Source of the DNA: Escherichia phage RB69
Length of the DNA stretch: 64,000 bases
Strand: one strand, 5' to 3'
Sequence record: NC_004928.1
Positions 3,633 through 59,306 of the stretch are shown here, piece after piece. The first letter of the stretch is position 1, and each line of letters opens with the position of its first letter. The notes below the pieces were generated by a model that saw only the letters and a program-made list of their open reading frames with translations, searched no databases and was not told where the DNA came from. Made by a program: the position numbers and the translations under genes.

Positions 3633-3664
3633 TTAAAATTAAAATGAAGCTCCCGAAGGAGCTT
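3633..3664 (-). terminator. Intrinsic terminator, UUCG-tetraloop hairpin followed by U-rich tract
   Basis: plus-strand aagctcc-cgaa-ggagctt; on the minus-strand RNA the loop is UUCG and is followed by a U-rich run; overlaps the gene 39 stop. Confidence 0.5.
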
Positions 3665-5531: not shown

Positions 5532-5548
5532 AAAGGGCCGAAGCCCTT
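5527..5548 (-). terminator. Intrinsic terminator with UUCG tetraloop
   Basis: agggc-cgaa-gccct hairpin followed by UUUUUGCUUU on the minus-strand RNA. Confidence 0.55.
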
Positions 5549-5969
5549 ATTTAAATTTAATTTTCTGAAGTGCATCAATTGCAGCCAAACGCCCTTGTTC
5601 ACTTTTAACTGTAATGACCACATCGCCTGATACGATCACCGAACCATCAACAAATTCTATAGAGCCTTTTTTGAAATCGACAGCTGTATCTGGTTCCGGA
5701 ACTTCTTCAAAGAATTTAAATTCTGCACCATAAAGCAGAATATCACCTTGCATACTAATGATTGTACGTCCAGGTCCATCGGTTTCAGCGGCAATCATTG
5801 AAACACCGTAACCAATCATCTCTTCTACAATAAAATCTCTTGATAATAAAACTGTATGCAGAGTAGTGTTAAGACGTTTACCAGTTGTATTAAGAATTCT
5901 CAAGAAATTATCTTCTTGACCTTTGATAATACGATATTTCTTACCAACTTCAAAACCTTTAAAAGCCAT
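5547..5969 (-). CDS. hypothetical protein (size and position compatible with T4 goF)
   Basis: 140-aa ORF upstream of gene 39. Confidence 0.45.
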   Translation of the reverse strand: MAFKGFEVGKKYRIIKGQEDNFLRILNTTGKRLNTTLHTVLLSRDFIVEEMIGYGVSMIAAETDGPGRTIISMQGDILLYGAEFKFFEEVPEPDTAVDFKKGSIEFVDGSVIVSGDVVITVKSEQGRLAAIDALQKIKFK

Positions 5970-14943: not shown

Positions 14944-14972
14944 ACGAAAAAAGGAATCCCGAAGGATTCCTT
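14944..14972 (-). terminator. Intrinsic terminator with UUCG tetraloop downstream of soc
   Basis: aaggaatcc-cgaa-ggattcctt followed by UUUUUUCG on the minus-strand RNA. Confidence 0.6.
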
Positions 14973-15216: not shown

Positions 15217-15247
15217 AATTAACTCCTTTGTTGTTTAATTACAGGTG

Positions 15248-15255
15248 TATTTATA
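15248..15255 (-). promoter_or_regulatory. T4 late promoter TATAAATA upstream of soc
   Basis: exact TATAAATA on the minus strand about 30 nt upstream of the soc ATG. Confidence 0.6.
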
Positions 15256-15450
15256 TCAATAATCGTCGTAGAAATCACTCAAAACATCGTATAGCTCTTT
15301 CTCATTATTGCAGATTAGCGACTTAATTGCGTCAGGGTGAGACTCCAGTGCACAAAGCTATATTGGCCGCGTGATGAGAATGTTTCTCAGATTCATATCA
15401 TCATTAGGGATGGCAATAACCAATCGGGTCTTTCTCGTAAAGGTCGTTCA

Positions 15451-18001: not shown

Positions 18002-18661
18002 TTAACCTCGATTCATAAATGCATTAAATATTTGGTCATCAACAGAAATTTCTAATTCGACTTCAATTGCTTCAGCCTTTTCTTCAGGTGGTAATTCGTA
18101 TCCACACACTACAATTTTTTCATCGATATCAAAATATACAGAAGCAATACGATTAATGTTATTTTCAGTTAAGTCCAAATCAACATCAACATCTTTTTGG
18201 CTTACACTTAGAGGATAACTAATACGGGTTATTTTATTATCTTTAACAAAGAGTCCACCAACATACTCTGTACTACGTTTGAAGTTTACACGTTTCCGAA
18301 TTGAAAGATATGATGCATCTTTACCGTGAGCTCGGCTCATAGGACATAATGAATAGCTAGAATAAGAGATGTCAAATCCTACACCTTCAATATGAGCCAA
18401 CGTGTCATGATTAAACCAATTATAATCATATGCCAAATCCATTATATTGTAATATGTGAAAGGCACAGGATTAACATCATATGTTGTACCTTTAAAATCT
18501 GCCCAGGCAACGATTTCGTTATCTTTAACAATTACAAAAATTACACCGATATGGTATCCGTTATTATTTTCATTCGGCGTTATATTATAACATTGTGCAT
18601 TAGGAAATTTACCATATTTAAATGGCGCGTTTTTGTGCATGTAATAAATCATATTATTCAC
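18002..18661 (-). CDS. hypothetical protein
   Basis: 219-aa ORF. Confidence 0.5.
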   Translation of the reverse strand: MNNMIYYMHKNAPFKYGKFPNAQCYNITPNENNNGYHIGVIFVIVKDNEIVAWADFKGTTYDVNPVPFTYYNIMDLAYDYNWFNHDTLAHIEGVGFDISYSSYSLCPMSRAHGKDASYLSIRKRVNFKRSTEYVGGLFVKDNKITRISYPLSVSQKDVDVDLDLTENNINRIASVYFDIDEKIVVCGYELPPEEKAEAIEVELEISVDDQIFNAFMNRG

Positions 18662-19963: not shown

Positions 19964-20176
19964 TTATCCTCTGAAATCAGCTTCAAAAACTTTCTCGTCA
20001 TTAATAAATGCTTTAACTAATGCATTGTTCACTTCAGCAAGTTGTACCGTAACCCACTCGATTTCTTCGCGATCACCTGATAACATGATATCTTTAGTGA
20101 ACATCTCACCGCTTTTAAACCAACCGATAAAAGTAACTTTAGTTAATTTGCTCATATTTCCTCGCAAAATGCCCAT
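19964..20176 (-). CDS. hypothetical protein
   Basis: 70-aa ORF. Confidence 0.4.
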   Translation of the reverse strand: MGILRGNMSKLTKVTFIGWFKSGEMFTKDIMLSGDREEIEWVTVQLAEVNNALVKAFINDEKVFEADFRG

Positions 20177-20469
20177 TCAGCGTGATAAACTGTAGCACCT
20201 TTAGTATTATTCATTTGAACTACGTCTACCGGAGAAATTACTCGATAGAGACGTGGTTCACCTCCATAAGAGCGTGCTGCTCGTCCTGCATAAATCTTTG
20301 CTAAACCGATATCTTCAGTAAAGAATACACGATCCAAGTTTTTCTTACGTCCAGTTTCAGACAGAACTCCTGTTTCCTCAGGAGGACAAAGCATGTTTTC
20401 GATGTTAGCTGAACTACTTGAACCGTGATAAAAAATCTTAAATTCTGCTTTACAATCGATGGTTTTCAT
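20152..20469 (-). CDS. hypothetical protein
   Basis: 105-aa ORF with its own early promoter. Confidence 0.45.
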   Translation of the reverse strand: MKTIDCKAEFKIFYHGSSSSANIENMLCPPEETGVLSETGRKKNLDRVFFTEDIGLAKIYAGRAARSYGGEPRLYRVISPVDVVQMNNTKGATVYHAEWAFCEEI

Positions 20470-20495
20470 TTTGTTCTCCAGTAGGTGATAGGTCT

Positions 20496-20523
20496 ATAAT
20501 ACACAACTACTGGAGAAGTAAAC
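20496..20523 (-). promoter_or_regulatory. early promoter (GTTTAC, 16 nt, TATTAT); spacer complementary to downstream ribosome-binding site
   Basis: ctccagtag (20476-20484) and ctactggag (20508-20516) form a 9-bp inverted repeat that includes the GGAG site. Confidence 0.5.
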
Positions 20524-20898
20524 TTAAAAACGTAATTTAGATATATCTGCGTTGATTTCGTTTTGGTTTGCGTCGTATGCAATTAAACGAACCGCTTTAG
20601 ATGGGTCATTCAATGCATAGAAATGATGGAACATTGCTCGAACGATATCACCATTTACGAGTTCTACCTGGATAGGAGAACCTTTTTCGAGTTGGAAATG
20701 TTCATAAGCTTTGATGGTTCGCAGATAATCAAGTTTTTGATTTCCGGCTCCAACAATTTGTACGATACGTTTGCCCATGTTTTCCATACGAGATACAATA
20801 GTTTTAGGAGCAAGAATAACGTAGGTTGCCAGCGGAGAAACTACTTCAACAGTTGTGTTTTCGGTGATTGCAGTAAAAATTGCTTGAGACATATTCAT
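20524..20898 (-). CDS. hypothetical protein
   Basis: 124-aa ORF. Confidence 0.5.
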   Translation of the reverse strand: MNMSQAIFTAITENTTVEVVSPLATYVILAPKTIVSRMENMGKRIVQIVGAGNQKLDYLRTIKAYEHFQLEKGSPIQVELVNGDIVRAMFHHFYALNDPSKAVRLIAYDANQNEINADISKLRF

Positions 20899-20927
20899 AA
20901 TGTTTTCCTCTTGGTTGGTGTAAGTAC

Positions 20928-20957
20928 ATCATATCATGTCTAGAGGAAGATGTAAAC
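20928..20957 (-). promoter_or_regulatory. early promoter (GTTTAC, 18 nt, TATGAT)
   Basis: minus strand GTTTACatcttcctctagacatgaTATGAT. Confidence 0.4.
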
Positions 20958-20963
20958 CCCGAA

Positions 20964-20988
20964 AGGAGACCGAAGTCTCCTTTTTATT
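20964..20988 (+). terminator. hairpin aggagac-cgaa-gtctcct with T-tract on the plus strand
   Basis: the U-tract follows the stem only on the plus strand; on the minus strand it is a UUCG hairpin just after the gene 41 stop. Confidence 0.4.
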
Positions 20989-22429
20989 AAAATTTTAACT
21001 CATTGGCTAAGCTATCTAGGTCAGCACGTGTTGCTTTGGCTTTACCTACGCGTTCCGTACGATTCACCTCTGCCTGACGCATCTGAGCACCTGCGTTTTC
21101 ATTTACTGTGTTAGGTGTGTTCATGCCTTCTTGCTCAATCTCAACCCATTTCTGATTGCCTTTACGTACACCCATCAGGAATTTATTCCACTTATTCTTA
21201 TCGCCGTATCGTGATTTGATTTGCTTGATAAGTTGTTGTTCAGCTTGTGCAAGTTCTTCGGTTTCAATTACAGCCAACATGAAATCTGCCGTTGCTGGTA
21301 AACCTGCTGATTCTGCGATATCACTCATGTTCATGTCTGAAGCATCCCATGCTGCACGTCCTACTTGAGCTGCAGTCCATAGAACTGTTTCAGATTCTAC
21401 TGCTAATGCACGAAGTTCTTCTGCGATAGCTTTAACTAATGTGTAGCTATTTTCAGTGTAAACTCTGATACGACAAGACCCACAAATACCTAAGTAATCA
21501 ACCATGATTACAGATGGCACAAAGTTCTTCTTAAGTTTTAACTCATTAAGCAATGCACGGAATGTATTAGCATTAGCTCCACCAGTAGGATACTGTTTAA
21601 CTACTAAACGTCCTAATGTTGTTTTTGAACGCCATTTTTCCATCTTGGCTTTATATTCAGCATAAGATACGTTACCATCATCAATATCATCAAGTGATAC
21701 GTCAAGCATGTTTGCATCTATACGCTTAGCGCAAACTTCTTCAGCCATTTCCATAGAAATATAAAGAACGTTATGACCTGTTTGAAGATAATCTGCAGCA
21801 AGTGAACAAAGGCCTAAAGATTTACCGACGTTAACACCAGCCATTAAAACGTTTAGTGTACCGGTTTCAGCACCACCTTTGGTTATTTTATTCAAAATGT
21901 TTAATTTGAACGGGACCTTACGTGCTTTATTTAGATAAGAAAGCCAGCGTGCTTCGTAGTCTTCCATCCAGTCATGTCCAACATAACTATCGAACGAAAT
22001 TGAAAGTGCTTGACGCATAATATCAGGAATAGCTCCTACGTCAGGCATTTTCTTGTTACGTTGTTCTGGAGGTAGTTCAGCATTAGACTGAATTTCAATG
22101 ATTTTGGACGTAGCATTATACATCGCTTTTTGCTGGACATATTTCTCAGTTTCTTTAACCAACCATTCGTGGTCTTCAGGAGTATCAGCCAATTTTTCAA
22201 TTAGGTCTGAAGTTCCTTTATATTCGGCTTCAGTTAAAGAACTGTTATCTAAAGCCACCTTTAATGCATTGATAGATGGCATTGCATTATATTCGTTAAC
22301 GTGGCTCTTTATAATTTTAAAGACGTTTTTTGCCGGTCCACGCTCAAAGTAATCAGAATCCATATAAGGCCAGACCTTAGAAAAATAAGCCTGGTCATAT
22401 ACTAGATGAGACAAAATAATTTCTACCAC
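20987..22429 (-). CDS. 41: replicative DNA helicase gp41 (DnaB-like)
   Basis: 480 aa; colinear with the T4 gp41 sequence as I recall it. Confidence 0.9.
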   Translation of the reverse strand: MVEIILSHLVYDQAYFSKVWPYMDSDYFERGPAKNVFKIIKSHVNEYNAMPSINALKVALDNSSLTEAEYKGTSDLIEKLADTPEDHEWLVKETEKYVQQKAMYNATSKIIEIQSNAELPPEQRNKKMPDVGAIPDIMRQALSISFDSYVGHDWMEDYEARWLSYLNKARKVPFKLNILNKITKGGAETGTLNVLMAGVNVGKSLGLCSLAADYLQTGHNVLYISMEMAEEVCAKRIDANMLDVSLDDIDDGNVSYAEYKAKMEKWRSKTTLGRLVVKQYPTGGANANTFRALLNELKLKKNFVPSVIMVDYLGICGSCRIRVYTENSYTLVKAIAEELRALAVESETVLWTAAQVGRAAWDASDMNMSDIAESAGLPATADFMLAVIETEELAQAEQQLIKQIKSRYGDKNKWNKFLMGVRKGNQKWVEIEQEGMNTPNTVNENAGAQMRQAEVNRTERVGKAKATRADLDSLANELKF

Positions 22430-22438
22430 GATAACTCC

Positions 22439-22783
22439 TTAAAAGAATTTAAATTTTTTCTTGGCCCGTTCATTAAAAGCTTGTTGTACTTGCATTGTAA
22501 CACATTTTTCAACATGTGGTGCAAGTTCTGCCTTTTCTGTCCTGGTCAAGAACTGCAAAGTCCATTTCGATTTTACCATCAACCCAGTGCTAGTTTTGTA
22601 ATATAGACTTATATGATGGGAACCGTCTTCAAGTGTAATCAGAATCTCTTGAATGACATTTTCCATTGCCGAACGGATAATTTTAAGAGATTCATTAAAC
22701 ACTCGTTCTTTGCGAATGTCTTCCCCTTCCGAAGAAGGGGATTCATCAACGATTTCTAGATTTAAATCATCGAGATTATTCAT
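22439..22783 (-). CDS. 40: gp40-like head vertex assembly chaperone
   Basis: ORF track 22439..22804; start at Met8 gives 114 aa as in T4 gp40 and avoids overlap with uvsX. Confidence 0.5.
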   Translation of the reverse strand: MNNLDDLNLEIVDESPSSEGEDIRKERVFNESLKIIRSAMENVIQEILITLEDGSHHISLYYKTSTGLMVKSKWTLQFLTRTEKAELAPHVEKCVTMQVQQAFNERAKKKFKFF

Positions 22784-33350: not shown

Positions 33351-33410
33351 TTAATTTCCTTTAGACGAGTTATTGTCTTTTGTTTGTTGATGAACTTATT
33401 ATACTCCAAA

Positions 33411-33426
33411 TGGGACCGAAGTCCCA
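33411..33426 (-). promoter_or_regulatory. UUCG-tetraloop hairpin between regA and gene 43
   Basis: tgggac-cgaa-gtccca; only a short U run follows; a TATAAT sits just downstream on the minus strand. Confidence 0.4.
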
Positions 33427-33431
33427 TTGCT

Positions 33432-40039: not shown

Positions 40040-40062
40040 AAAAGGAACTCCGAAGAGTTCCT
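40035..40062 (-). terminator. Intrinsic terminator with UUCG tetraloop
   Basis: aggaactc-cgaa-gagttcct followed by UUUUUGCUUU on the minus-strand RNA. Confidence 0.6.
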
Positions 40063-47737: not shown

Positions 47738-47768
47738 CCCTTACCTTAAATAGATAAGGGTATTTATA
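47738..47768 (-). promoter_or_regulatory. late promoter TATAAATA (47761-47768) with hairpin (47738-47760) covering the gene 49 ribosome-binding site
   Basis: minus strand TATAAATAcccttatctatttaaggtaagggtttatcATG; ccctta/taaggg stem includes the AAGG site. Confidence 0.55.
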
Positions 47769-47770
47769 AT

Positions 47771-47950
47771 TTAGTAAACGTTATAAAAGTCTCGATGAAA
47801 ACGTTTATATTGACGAATCATTTTCTTAGTAGGACGTGTTACTGAAATAATTGAAGTAGTCATAGTCGGATTGTTTGGAGCGCCAGTCATAACAAATTTC
47901 CAGGATTTTTGGCCATTTTTTCTTTCACCATAAAATAATTCAGTTTTCAT
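47771..47950 (-). CDS. small basic-tail protein, family member 1
   Basis: 59 aa translated by hand (MKTELFYGERKNGQKSWKFVMTGAPNNPTMTTSIISVTRPTKKMIRQYKRFHRDFYNVY). Confidence 0.4.
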   Translation of the reverse strand: MKTELFYGERKNGQKSWKFVMTGAPNNPTMTTSIISVTRPTKKMIRQYKRFHRDFYNVY

Positions 47951-55310: not shown

Positions 55311-55328
55311 AAGGGCCCGAAGGCCCTT
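55311..55328 (-). promoter_or_regulatory. stable UUCG-tetraloop hairpin just after the 55330..56319 stop
   Basis: aagggcc-cgaa-ggccctt; no clear U-tract. Confidence 0.4.
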
Positions 55329-58697: not shown

Positions 58698-58724
58698 ATA
58701 TACCTCTTGGTTAGATATTAGTAT

Positions 58725-59306
58725 TTATAACAACCCTGTCAAATCGTTCCAATGCTTCCGGCATAATGACACGTATCTATCGGTATCACCAATTTCAATT
58801 TGACTGCCATCTGTAATTGGAAGTCCGTCTTCCGTGACTCTAGCTACCATTGTGGCCTTTTTACCGCAATGACAGACACCTTTAAGTTCAACAAGCTTAT
58901 CGGCAATAGCCATTAATGCTTGAGAACCTTCAAATAGATTACCTTTAAAATCTGTTCGTAGTCCGTATGCCATTACCGGCACATTGTATACGTCAACAAT
59001 ACGACTAAGTTGATACACCTTTTCAGTAGTTAAGAACTGAGCTTCGTCAACAAATACACAGTGAATATCCTTTTGTGCTGCAGCCCATTTATAGAATTCA
59101 AAGATATCCATGTCTTTTGTAATTATATTGGCGTCCTGACGAATACCAATACGAGAGACTATTTCACCTTTTGAATCGCGAGTATCAATAGCCGGTTTAA
59201 GAACTAATACACCCATGCCACGTTCTTTATAGTTATGTGCGGCAGTAAGTAATGAAGCAGACTTACCAGCGTTCATAGCGGCATATGTAAAAATTAAACT
59301 AGCCAT
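58725..59306 (-). CDS. tk: thymidine kinase
   Basis: 193 aa; P-loop AMNAGKS and C-terminal zinc-ribbon cysteines. Confidence 0.9.
   Translation of the reverse strand: MASLIFTYAAMNAGKSASLLTAAHNYKERGMGVLVLKPAIDTRDSKGEIVSRIGIRQDANIITKDMDIFEFYKWAAAQKDIHCVFVDEAQFLTTEKVYQLSRIVDVYNVPVMAYGLRTDFKGNLFEGSQALMAIADKLVELKGVCHCGKKATMVARVTEDGLPITDGSQIEIGDTDRYVSLCRKHWNDLTGLL

What the first reader, a model, noticed from the sequence alone, without database searches (positions are those of the whole stretch)
20964..20988. Terminator-like hairpin oriented for the plus strand, downstream of gene 41
The hairpin aggagac-cgaa-gtctcct has its T-tract on the plus strand only. On the coding (minus) strand it is just a stable UUCG hairpin after the gene 41 stop. 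It may stop antisense or late-strand transcription entering the early region, or act as an RNA 3-prime stability element.
Basis: seen in the sequence. Interest (0 to 1): 0.35.

Follow-up and report, generated by a model that had tools for sequence, protein, structure and literature searches.

The report
Known hairpin terminator after helicase gene 41
The hairpin after the phage helicase gene is real, but it is one of a known set of extra-stable UUCG-loop mRNA hairpins, already published as a predicted coding-strand terminator, so it is ordinary and not an antisense terminator.

Summary
The hairpin exists exactly as described: + strand 20962-20983, AAAGGAGAC-CGAA-GTCTCCTTT, then TTATT. It starts right after the tandem TAA TAA stops of gene 41.

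The window matches phage RB69 coordinate for coordinate. Nolan et al. 2006 list a TransTerm terminator at 20965-20980, strand '-', named 'RB69ORF041c<--41'. Related GenBank records annotate the same hairpin as an ARNold terminator on the gene-41 strand.

On the mRNA (minus) strand it is a C(UUCG)G tetraloop hairpin.
- Eight of nine CUUCGG hexamers in minus-sense RNA are closed by 6-9 bp stems. None of 18 in plus sense has a stem above 5 bp.
- The stem covaries in other genera (A-U/G-C/C-G, with a G-U intermediate).
- The Yersinia-phage version carries its U-tract on the coding strand.
- The plus-strand T-run is not conserved. It largely comes from the stop codons plus an A-run.
- No late or HMM-predicted early promoter reads into it on the plus strand.

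The hairpin sits directly upstream of early promoter Pe:20971, forming a terminator-promoter cassette like the published PeSL elements.

Most likely it is a leaky terminator and 3'-end protector of the uvsX-40-41 mRNAs. It is already known as a prediction, and interest is low.

The parts
20962..20983 (-). C(UUCG)G tetraloop hairpin on the mRNA strand: AAAGGAGAC-UUCG-GUCUCCUUU, 9 bp. Loop at 20974-20971.
   Evidence: Covariation. Published as a TransTerm terminator at 20965-20980, strand '-'. Annotated as an ARNold terminator in ATK47 and WFL6982.
20984..20989 (-). Tandem in-frame stop codons TAA TAA of gene 41. With the AAA of the stem they form the A-run whose complement is the + strand T-run.
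   Evidence: The A-run varies in length among isolates.
20981..20988 (+). Judged incidental.
   Evidence: Not conserved in orthologs. Unique among the 8 UUCG hairpins of the window.
20987..22429 (-). Gene 41, replicative DnaB-like helicase, the last gene of the uvsX-40-41 block.
   Evidence: PF03796 DnaB_C, E = 9e-18.
20921..20956 (-). Early sigma-70-type promoter. The -35 TTTACA is at 20956-20951, spacer 17 nt, TG-extended -10 TATGAT at 20933-20928, expected start near 20921. The hairpin occupies about -41 to -62.
   Evidence: 10 of 12 matches, TG present. Published HMM prediction Pe:20971, spanning 20921-20971, strand '-'. The -35 and the preceding TTTCGGGG are conserved across genera.
20940..20950 (-). 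Promoter-spacer segment UCUUCCUCUAG, complementary to the Shine-Dalgarno region of the next gene. It is present only in read-through transcripts coming from gene 41.
   Evidence: fold of 20900-21000, minus strand; duplex -10.1 kcal/mol against -4.3 for shuffled arms, 0 of 200 shuffles as good.
20903..20912 (-). Shine-Dalgarno region AAGAGGAAAA of ORF 20524..20898, the pairing partner of 20940-20950.
20524..20898 (-). RB69ORF041c-type ORFan, 124 aa, phrog_10668, function unknown. It is the first gene served by the promoter and is missing in some Mosigviruses.

Best explanation
The element works as RNA on the minus (mRNA) strand. It is a C(UUCG)G-capped 9-bp hairpin placed immediately after the stop codons of gene 41, and it marks the 3' boundary of the uvsX-40-41 transcription unit.

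Inferred mechanism:
- RNA polymerase transcribing gene 41 forms the hairpin, followed by UUUCGGGGUUU.
- With this imperfect U-tract, a fraction of complexes terminate, so it acts as a leaky intrinsic terminator or attenuator.
- Whatever the route to the 3' end (termination or 3'-to-5' trimming), the very stable tetraloop hairpin then protects the gene 41 mRNA from 3' exonucleases.

The hairpin is the upstream half of a terminator-promoter cassette. The early promoter (-35 at 20956-20951) starts 5 nt downstream of the hairpin and restarts transcription for the ORFan 20524..20898. Read-through transcripts carry a spacer segment that pairs with that ORF's Shine-Dalgarno sequence.

The plus-strand T-run is a by-product of the TAA-TAA-AAA sequence.

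Shown here: the structure, its strand bias, covariation, position and cassette context. Inferred only: termination and stabilisation.
For: - Published and deposited annotations put it on the coding strand. RB69 TransTerm site 20965-20980, score 100, strand '-'. ARNold terminators in ATK47 and WFL6982.
- Strand bias of the motif: 8 of 9 CUUCGG hexamers in minus-sense RNA sit on 6-9 bp stems, against 0 of 18 in plus sense with a stem above 5 bp. By my reading of their coordinates against the ORF list, most lie at or just after a minus-strand stop codon. Three (closing C at 5543, 14964, 40055) have canonical U-tracts on the minus strand.
- Covariation: 97.8% of cells paired, and 2 of 9 pairs changed on both sides (A-U/G-C/C-G and G-C/A-U). 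The loop and closing pair are invariant. L212 carries a G-U intermediate.
- Orthologs in Yersinia phages TG1 and fHe-Yen9-01 have the same position, loop and downstream promoter, with a proper U-tract on the coding strand, GGCUCUUUUUGG. Their score is 25.7 (minus) against 1.1 (plus).
- Coding-strand scores are non-negative in every lineage tested, while plus-strand scores range from 0.2 to 23.
- The promoter immediately downstream is supported.
- PeSL stem-loops of this layout reduced lacZ read-through like a strong terminator in RB49/phi1 (Arbiol et al. 2010, PMC2839356).
Against: - In this genome the coding-strand U-tract is poor (UUU, then CGGGG). The recalled d'Aubenton-Carafa-type score is only 1.8, against 19-23 for the plus orientation. 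The built-in scan did not call it.
- Five of the eight UUCG hairpins have no clear U-tract on the mRNA strand (four none, one at 3647-3664 only moderate; this one has UUU then CGGGG), so termination may not be the shared function.
- T4 and several other T-even lineages have no hairpin between gene 41 and the promoter, so it is dispensable.
- The conserved Shine-Dalgarno-occluding pairing implies substantial read-through.
- I found no experimental 3'-end data for RB69-type phages.
Confidence: 0.6

Rival explanations
1. It is a purely post-transcriptional mRNA element. The C(UUCG)G hairpin does not terminate transcription. It only serves as a 3'-exonuclease barrier or processing end-point, and as a structural insulator between the gene 41 cistron and the downstream cistron in long read-through transcripts.
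For: The coding-strand U-tract is weak. Five of the eight UUCG hairpins in the window lack a clear U-tract, and one lies inside the gene 40 coding region. The conserved Shine-Dalgarno-occluding pairing argues that read-through RNAs are common and matter. The exceptional stability of C(UUCG)G hairpins in T4 mRNAs is established knowledge (Tuerk et al. 1988, cited from memory).
Against: The Tegunavirus ortholog and three sister hairpins in the window are canonical terminators on the same strand. TransTerm and ARNold both accept this hairpin as a terminator. Comparable stem-loops terminated in a reporter assay.
Confidence: 0.22
2. It is a plus-strand or bidirectional intrinsic terminator. The hairpin plus the T5ATT run stops antisense or late-mode transcription running rightward into gene 41.
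For: In this genome the + strand has the better tail: TransTermHP-style tail score -5.1 against -3.6, and d-type score 19-23 against 1.8. The A-run/U-run symmetry is what bidirectional terminators look like. One regex-level early-type promoter match exists on the + strand at 18285.
Against: - No TATAAATA on the + strand anywhere in the window.
- No + strand late promoter in RB69 between 1 and 72,830. The nearest one reading this way is at 159,154, tens of kb away around the permuted map.
- No HMM-predicted + strand early promoter upstream, and sigma-70-like hits are at chance level.
- There are no + strand genes.
- The T-run is not conserved in orthologs (Kosakonia 305 scores 0.2, TG1 1.1).
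- The loop is CGAA on the + strand, with no special stability. The 8-versus-0 strand bias of UUCG points to the other strand.
Confidence: 0.1
3. It is mainly a DNA-level cassette boundary. The inverted repeat plus the -35 box is a conserved recombination linker (PeSL-like) that is kept because it mediates gain and loss of ORFans. Any RNA function is secondary.
For: The same hairpin/-35 module follows a different gene in Serratia phage 4S (topoisomerase II medium subunit) and in L214/L216. ORF041c is present or absent among Mosigviruses, with breakpoints at the -35 (LF82-5) or at the Shine-Dalgarno region (TH58, C06). The PeSL model is published.
Against: A recombination linker needs sequence identity, not pairing. 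Yet the stem evolves by compensatory changes while the UUCG loop stays strand-specific. This indicates selection on RNA structure.
Confidence: 0.06

Closest known systems
Predicted rho-independent terminator 'RB69ORF041c<--41' of phage RB69 (Nolan et al. 2006, Virol J 3:30, Additional file 6), with equivalent ARNold annotations in Mosigvirus GenBank records
   Same: It is the same element. The coordinates are identical (20965-20980), with a 6-bp core stem and strand '-'. It is annotated on the gene 41 strand in ATK47 and WFL6982.
   Different: Nothing differs in sequence. Those calls are computational only.
C(UUCG)G hairpins of T4 intercistronic regions (Tuerk et al. 1988, PNAS 85:1364; cited from memory, the paper is not held in the library)
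   Same: UUCG tetraloop closed by C-G, located between cistrons on the mRNA strand of a T-even phage, sometimes with and sometimes without a U-tract.
   Different: T4 itself has no hairpin at this position. There the gene 41 TAG stop abuts the -35 TTTACA. Stability and function of this particular copy are untested.
PeSL (promoter-early stem-loop) cassettes of RB49/phi1 (Arbiol et al. 2010, Genome Biol Evol 2:140, PMC2839356)
   Same: Intergenic cassette made of an upstream stop codon in A/T-rich sequence, a stem-loop, a strong sigma-70-like early promoter, a Shine-Dalgarno sequence and an ORFan. One described subclass has the stem-loop upstream of the -35. Both are associated with ORFan gain and loss.
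   Different: The PeSL stems described are typically GGGG...CCCC tracts and mostly lie between or over the -35 and -10 boxes. Here the stem is AGGAGAC with a UUCG loop. The phage genus differs, and sequence homology to RB49 PeSLs was not tested.
Canonical E. coli intrinsic terminators, including bidirectional ones
   Same: A short G+C-containing hairpin next to T/A-runs, directly after a stop codon.
   Different: The coding-strand U-tract is interrupted after 3 U. The strand with the good T-run has no identifiable transcription unit.

Membership tests
Intrinsic (rho-independent) terminator, coding/minus strand | Stable G+C-containing stem-loop, 5-14 bp with a 3-8 nt loop | tested here: met
   9-bp perfect stem with a UUCG loop. 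Free energy is -12.1 kcal/mol for the 22-mer and -13.6 kcal/mol in 56-nt context.
Intrinsic (rho-independent) terminator, coding/minus strand | U-rich tract (about 5 or more U in 8 nt) immediately 3' of the stem | tested here: inconclusive
   The tail is UUUCGGGGUUUACA. It fails the tool's criterion. The TransTermHP-style tail score is -3.64 with a 6-bp stem. I recall the program's default cut-off as about -2.5, so I read this as a pass, but that threshold is from memory. TransTerm and ARNold accept it. The d-type score is 1.8, borderline. The feature is clearly met in the TG1 ortholog (score 25.7).
Intrinsic (rho-independent) terminator, coding/minus strand | Lies at the end of a transcription unit, downstream of a stop codon | tested here: met
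   It starts directly after the TAA TAA of gene 41, and a new promoter follows.
Intrinsic (rho-independent) terminator, coding/minus strand | Transcript 3' ends or termination observed at the site | not testable with these tools
   No RB69-type 3'-end data were found in the literature searches.
   GTCTCCT is followed by TTTTATT. Tail score is -5.1 and d-type score 19-23.
   There are 0 TATAAATA motifs on the + strand in 64 kb. No published + strand late or early promoter prediction lies upstream. No + strand genes exist. The only candidate is a regex-level match at 18285.
   Kosakonia 305 and Q7622 have TCTTAGAA (score 0.2). TG1 has TTATTTAG (score 1.1). PEi26 keeps T4 (score 20.6).
C(UUCG)G tetraloop hairpins of T-even mRNAs | UUCG loop closed by a C-G pair on the transcribed mRNA strand | tested here: met
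   The minus strand reads GAC-UUCG-GUC. The loop and closing pair are invariant in 5 of 5 lineages.
C(UUCG)G tetraloop hairpins of T-even mRNAs | Recurrent, strand-specific, intercistronic occurrence | tested here: met
   Eight hairpins in minus sense against 0 in plus sense. By my reading coordinates against the ORF list, most lie at or just after a stop codon.
PeSL promoter-early stem-loop cassette (Arbiol et al. 2010) | Strong sigma-70-like early promoter joined to a stem-loop in one intergenic cassette, between an upstream stop codon and a downstream Shine-Dalgarno/ATG | tested here: met
   The order is stop codon, hairpin, TTTACA-17-TG-TATGAT, Shine-Dalgarno, ATG, all within 91 nt. The stem-loop-upstream-of--35 subclass is described.
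PeSL promoter-early stem-loop cassette (Arbiol et al. 2010) | Association with ORFan insertion or deletion, with breakpoints inside the cassette | tested here: met
   ORF041c is absent in LF82-5 (breakpoint at the -35) and in TH58 and C06 (breakpoint near the Shine-Dalgarno region). The module is reused after other genes.
PeSL promoter-early stem-loop cassette (Arbiol et al. 2010) | Typical polyG/polyC stem, and sequence relatedness to the RB49/phi1 repeats | tested here: not met
   The stem is AAAGGAGAC/GUCUCCUUU, not GGGG...CCCC (compared). Homology to RB49 PeSLs was not examined.
PeSL promoter-early stem-loop cassette (Arbiol et al. 2010) | Formation of mini-circles by recombination between cassettes | not testable with these tools
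   This needs inverse PCR on infected cells.

The most novel reading that the evidence does not exclude
The hairpin plus the TTTCGGGG-TTTACA (-35) module is a portable terminator-promoter linker shared across several genera of T-even-like phages. It follows gene 41 in Mosigvirus, Kanagawavirus and Tegunavirus, and follows a topoisomerase gene or another gene elsewhere. It would drive gain and loss of ORFans such as ORF041c, while its paired spacer/Shine-Dalgarno arm restricts their translation to promoter-initiated transcripts. This would extend the PeSL concept, with a UUCG-type stem, to the RB69 group. A separate and less likely novel reading is a true bidirectional terminator that blocks antisense RNA (about 0.1).
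Probability: 0.35. Interest if true: 0.35.

Novelty: already known. Interest (0 to 1): 0.12.

Why it matters
It matters little beyond good annotation. The hairpin helps define the 3' end of the uvsX-40-41 replication and recombination transcripts, and the start of an early ORFan unit in RB69-type phages. The case shows that which strand carries the better T-run is a poor guide to terminator polarity in A/T-rich phage DNA. Loop identity (UUCG against CGAA), strand bias of the motif, and comparison with orthologs are more informative. The cassette context (terminator, promoter, Shine-Dalgarno-occluding arm, ORFan polymorphism) is a tidy natural example of modular shuffling, but the concept is published.

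Tried and rejected
- The built-in promoter/terminator scan did not list the hairpin on either strand. This is an artefact of maximal stem extension using up the T-run, not evidence against the hairpin.
- A loose collection scan, CTTCGG-N(5-25)-GTTTACAT, returned 120 mostly unrelated contigs and was useless. The tighter pattern gave 6 informative loci.
- Distant T4-like phages (43-52% gp41 identity, mostly metagenomic) generally have no hairpin after gene 41. The element is therefore lineage-specific, and those loci add nothing.
- RNAalifold on the promoter-to-ATG alignment predicted no pairs, because MAFFT misaligned the Shine-Dalgarno regions. It was replaced by per-sequence duplex energies with shuffles.
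- Rfam gave no match at E <= 1.
- The RB69 records NC_004928 and AY303349 are not in the phage collection. Identity with RB69 is inferred from exact agreement of the published terminator and promoter coordinates.
- Miller et al. 2003 and Tuerk et al. 1988 are not held in the library, so they are cited from memory only.
- Other functions were considered and rejected. A RegB cleavage site or a Shine-Dalgarno function for the AGGAG in the stem is unlikely: it is sequestered in the helix, no start codon follows, and the motif is absent from the TG1 stem. An RNase III site is unlikely because the stem is far too short. A chance palindrome is excluded by the covariation and the strand bias.

Full report
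**What is there**

The window is the early region of an RB69-type T-even phage (genus Mosigvirus). The 1-kb region around the finding is 95-99.5% identical to about 150 Mosigvirus genomes. All real genes lie on the minus strand.

The coordinates of published RB69 features coincide to the base with what I find in the window.
- TransTerm terminators at 3649-3662, 14953-14970, 20965-20980, 40044-40061 and 55313-55326 match the hairpins.
- Late promoters at 15237-15279, 47750-47792 and 58711-58753 match the TATAAATA motifs.

The window is therefore RB69 positions 1-64000, or an isolate collinear with it.

The + strand at 20962-20983 reads AAAGGAGAC-CGAA-GTCTCCTTT, a perfect 9-bp hairpin, followed by TTATT. 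Gene 41 (20987..22429, minus; DnaB_C domain) ends with TAA at 20989-20987 and a second in-frame TAA at 20986-20984. On the mRNA strand the hairpin therefore starts right after the stops. It reads AAAGGAGAC-UUCG-GUCUCCUUU and is followed by CGGGGUUUACA.

**Is it more than chance?**

Taken alone the evidence is modest. Fold z-scores are about -2.1 to -2.2 on either strand. Nine-pair stems with G-U allowed occur at the rate expected from shuffles. Three other results settle the question.

- Strand bias. Of 9 CUUCGG hexamers in minus-sense RNA, 8 are closed by stems of 6-9 bp (closing C at 3658, 5543, 14964, 20975, 22734, 33421, 40055, 55322). Of 18 CUUCGG hexamers in plus sense, the best stem is 5 bp and the rest are 2 bp or less.
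- Covariation. In an alignment of five lineages the helix is 97.8% paired. Two of nine pairs change on both sides (A-U/G-C/C-G and G-C/A-U), while the loop and the closing C-G are invariant. Slid controls fall to 36-64% paired. One metagenomic relative (L212) has the G-U intermediate.
- Local conservation. The 22-mer is identical in six Mosigvirus loci whose flanks differ.

**Which strand does it serve?**

The + strand tail (T5ATT) is better than the minus tail (UUU, then CGGGGUUU). TransTermHP-style tail scores are -5.1 against -3.6. A d'Aubenton-Carafa-type score, using a formula recalled from memory, gives 19-23 against 1.8. Everything else points to the mRNA strand.

1. The loop is the special UUCG only on the minus strand, and the whole family of such hairpins is minus-specific.
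2. By my reading of their coordinates against the ORF list, most of the eight sit at or just after a minus-strand stop codon. Three are canonical minus-strand terminators (closing C at 5543, 14964, 40055). Only this one has a + strand T-run.
3. The T-run is the complement of TAA-TAA-AAA. The A-run varies in length (A6 in ATK47).
4. Orthologs occupy the same place: gene 41 stop, then hairpin, then -35 TTTACA.
 - Kanagawavirus (PEi26, Kosakonia 305, Q7622) has (A/G)AGGAGGC-UUCG-GCCUCCUU, then UC(A/G)GGGUUUACA.
 - In Kosakonia 305 and Q7622 the + strand tail is TCTTAGAA (score 0.2).
 - Tegunavirus (TG1, fHe-Yen9-01) has AAGAGCC-UUCG-GGCUCUU, then UUUGGUUUACA. That is a proper U-tract on the coding strand, scoring 25.7 against 1.1.
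 - The coding-strand score is never negative, whereas the + strand score swings from 0.2 to 23.
5. Nothing obvious transcribes the + strand.
 - There is no TATAAATA on the + strand in 64 kb.
 - RB69 has no predicted + strand late promoter between 1 and 72,830. The nearest one reading this way is at 159,154.
 - There is no HMM-predicted + strand early promoter between 1 and 62,007.
 - Sigma-70-like hits are at the shuffle level, 32 against 24.8 +/- 4.6.
 - A single regex-level early-type match lies at 18285 on the + strand.
6. Previous annotators reached the same polarity. These are TransTerm in RB69 (strand '-', score 100, 'RB69ORF041c<--41') and ARNold in ATK47 and WFL6982.

**Context**

Five nucleotides downstream of the hairpin, on the mRNA strand, begins an early promoter. 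It has -35 TTTACA at 20956-20951, a 17-nt spacer and a TG-extended -10 TATGAT at 20933-20928. It equals the published Pe:20971. The hairpin thus occupies about -41 to -62.

The promoter serves ORF 20524..20898 (RB69ORF041c, phrog_10668, function unknown). T4 has the same promoter directly after the gene 41 stop, with no hairpin, and there it serves dmd.

The layout matches the PeSL cassettes of RB49/phi1: stop codon in A/T-rich sequence, stem-loop, early promoter, Shine-Dalgarno sequence, ORFan. Those include a subclass with the stem-loop upstream of the -35. A PeSL stem-loop reduced lacZ read-through like the rrnB T1 terminator (Arbiol et al. 2010).

Two observations fit the PeSL idea of modular shuffling.
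- ORF041c is missing in some Mosigviruses. The breakpoint is at the -35 in LF82-5, and near the Shine-Dalgarno region in TH58 and vB_VIPECOMC06.
- The same hairpin/-35 module follows a topoisomerase gene in Serratia phage 4S, and another gene in two IMG/VR contigs.

**Mechanism**

The best-supported reading (confidence about 0.6) is that the hairpin acts in the uvsX-40-41 mRNAs.
- It is a leaky intrinsic terminator or attenuator.
- It is also a 3'-end cap against exonucleases.
- It insulates the upstream unit from the early promoter that follows.

Leakiness is suggested by two things. The U-tract is interrupted. The promoter spacer (20950-20940, UCUUCCUCUAG) is complementary to the Shine-Dalgarno region of ORF041c (20912-20903). 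The duplex energy is -10.1 kcal/mol against -4.3 for shuffled arms, with 0 of 200 shuffles as good.

The same design recurs at the next promoter (20517-20507 with 20484-20474; -18.6 against -5.4). It covaries in relatives: UCCUC/GAGGA in PEi26, AUCUCC/GGAGAU in TG1 and Kosakonia 305. Only read-through RNAs contain the occluding arm. This resembles the T4 arrangements at genes e, soc and I-TevI, which I cite from memory.

Structure, polarity and context are shown here. Termination and stabilisation are inferred.

**Rivals**
- A purely post-transcriptional stability or insulator hairpin without termination: 0.22.
- A plus-strand or bidirectional terminator: 0.10.
- A DNA-level recombination linker only: 0.06.
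- A chance palindrome: rejected.

**Novelty and score**

The element is already in the literature as a predicted coding-strand terminator of RB69, and it is in GenBank annotations. C(UUCG)G hairpins in T-even intercistronic regions have been known since 1988, and terminator-promoter cassettes since 2010. There are no experimental data for this copy. It is an ordinary, correctly observed feature whose proposed plus-strand polarity is not supported. Interest is 0.12.

Noticed in passing
window 20940-20950 with 20903-20912 (minus strand); also 20507-20517 with 20474-20484: The spacer of each early promoter, just after the -35, is complementary to the Shine-Dalgarno region of the gene it serves. 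Read-through transcripts should therefore occlude the ribosome site, while promoter-initiated transcripts lack the occluding arm. Duplex energies are -10.1 and -18.6 kcal/mol, against about -4 to -5 for shuffles. The arms covary with the Shine-Dalgarno sequence in Kanagawavirus and Tegunavirus relatives.
   Followed up: partly
window 20524-20898; loci L204, L210, L211: ORF041c (124 aa, phrog_10668, function unknown) is present or absent among Mosigviruses. LF82-5 lacks it with the breakpoint exactly at the -35 box. TH58 and vB_VIPECOMC06 lack it with the breakpoint near the Shine-Dalgarno region. This fits promoter-cassette-mediated shuffling.
   Followed up: partly
window 3647-3664, 5535-5550, 14951-14972, 22722-22741, 33409-33428, 40043-40062, 55311-55328: Seven further C(UUCG)G hairpins, all on the mRNA (minus) strand. 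Three have canonical U-tracts and four do not. The one at 22722-22741 lies inside the 5' part of gene 40, about 35 nt after the uvsX stop. The one at 33409-33428 sits between regA and gene 43.
   Followed up: partly
L003 2060-2100 (T4); L009, L013, L014 just downstream of the gene 41 stop: In T4-type and CC31/PG7-type phages the promoter after gene 41 is spanned by a 10-12 bp stem-loop whose loop contains the -10 hexamer. The stem sequences differ between lineages but stay complementary: GACAAGACTA/TAGTCTTGTC, GATAGGGCTA/TAGCCCTATC, GTGTAGGAGC/GCTCCTACAC. This resembles the commonest PeSL subclass.
   Followed up: no
L205 about 700-757 (Serratia phage 4S); L214 2840-2864; L216 1961-1985: The hairpin/TTTCGGGG/TTTACA module occurs after genes other than gene 41. 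It follows the topoisomerase II medium subunit gene in phage 4S, and an unrelated ORF in two IMG/VR contigs. In those contigs the stem is AAGGGCC/GGCCCTT, identical to the window hairpin at 55311-55328.
   Followed up: partly
window 18285-18314 (+): An early-type promoter-like match on the + strand (TTTACA-18-TATGAT, 10 of 12), inside a minus-strand ORF and 2.7 kb upstream of the hairpin in the + direction. It is absent from the published RB69 HMM promoter list and is probably a chance match.
   Followed up: no
window 20984-20988; L001 1984-1989: The A-run between the gene 41 stops and the hairpin is a length-variable homopolymer, A5 in the window and A6 in phage ATK47.
   Followed up: yes
window 20152-20469 (minus strand): A 105-aa ORF (phrog_2110, no Pfam hit) lies downstream of ORF041c. 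It is conserved next to gene 41 in Mosigvirus, Tegunavirus and PEi26, all beginning MKTIDCK. Its function is unknown.
   Followed up: no
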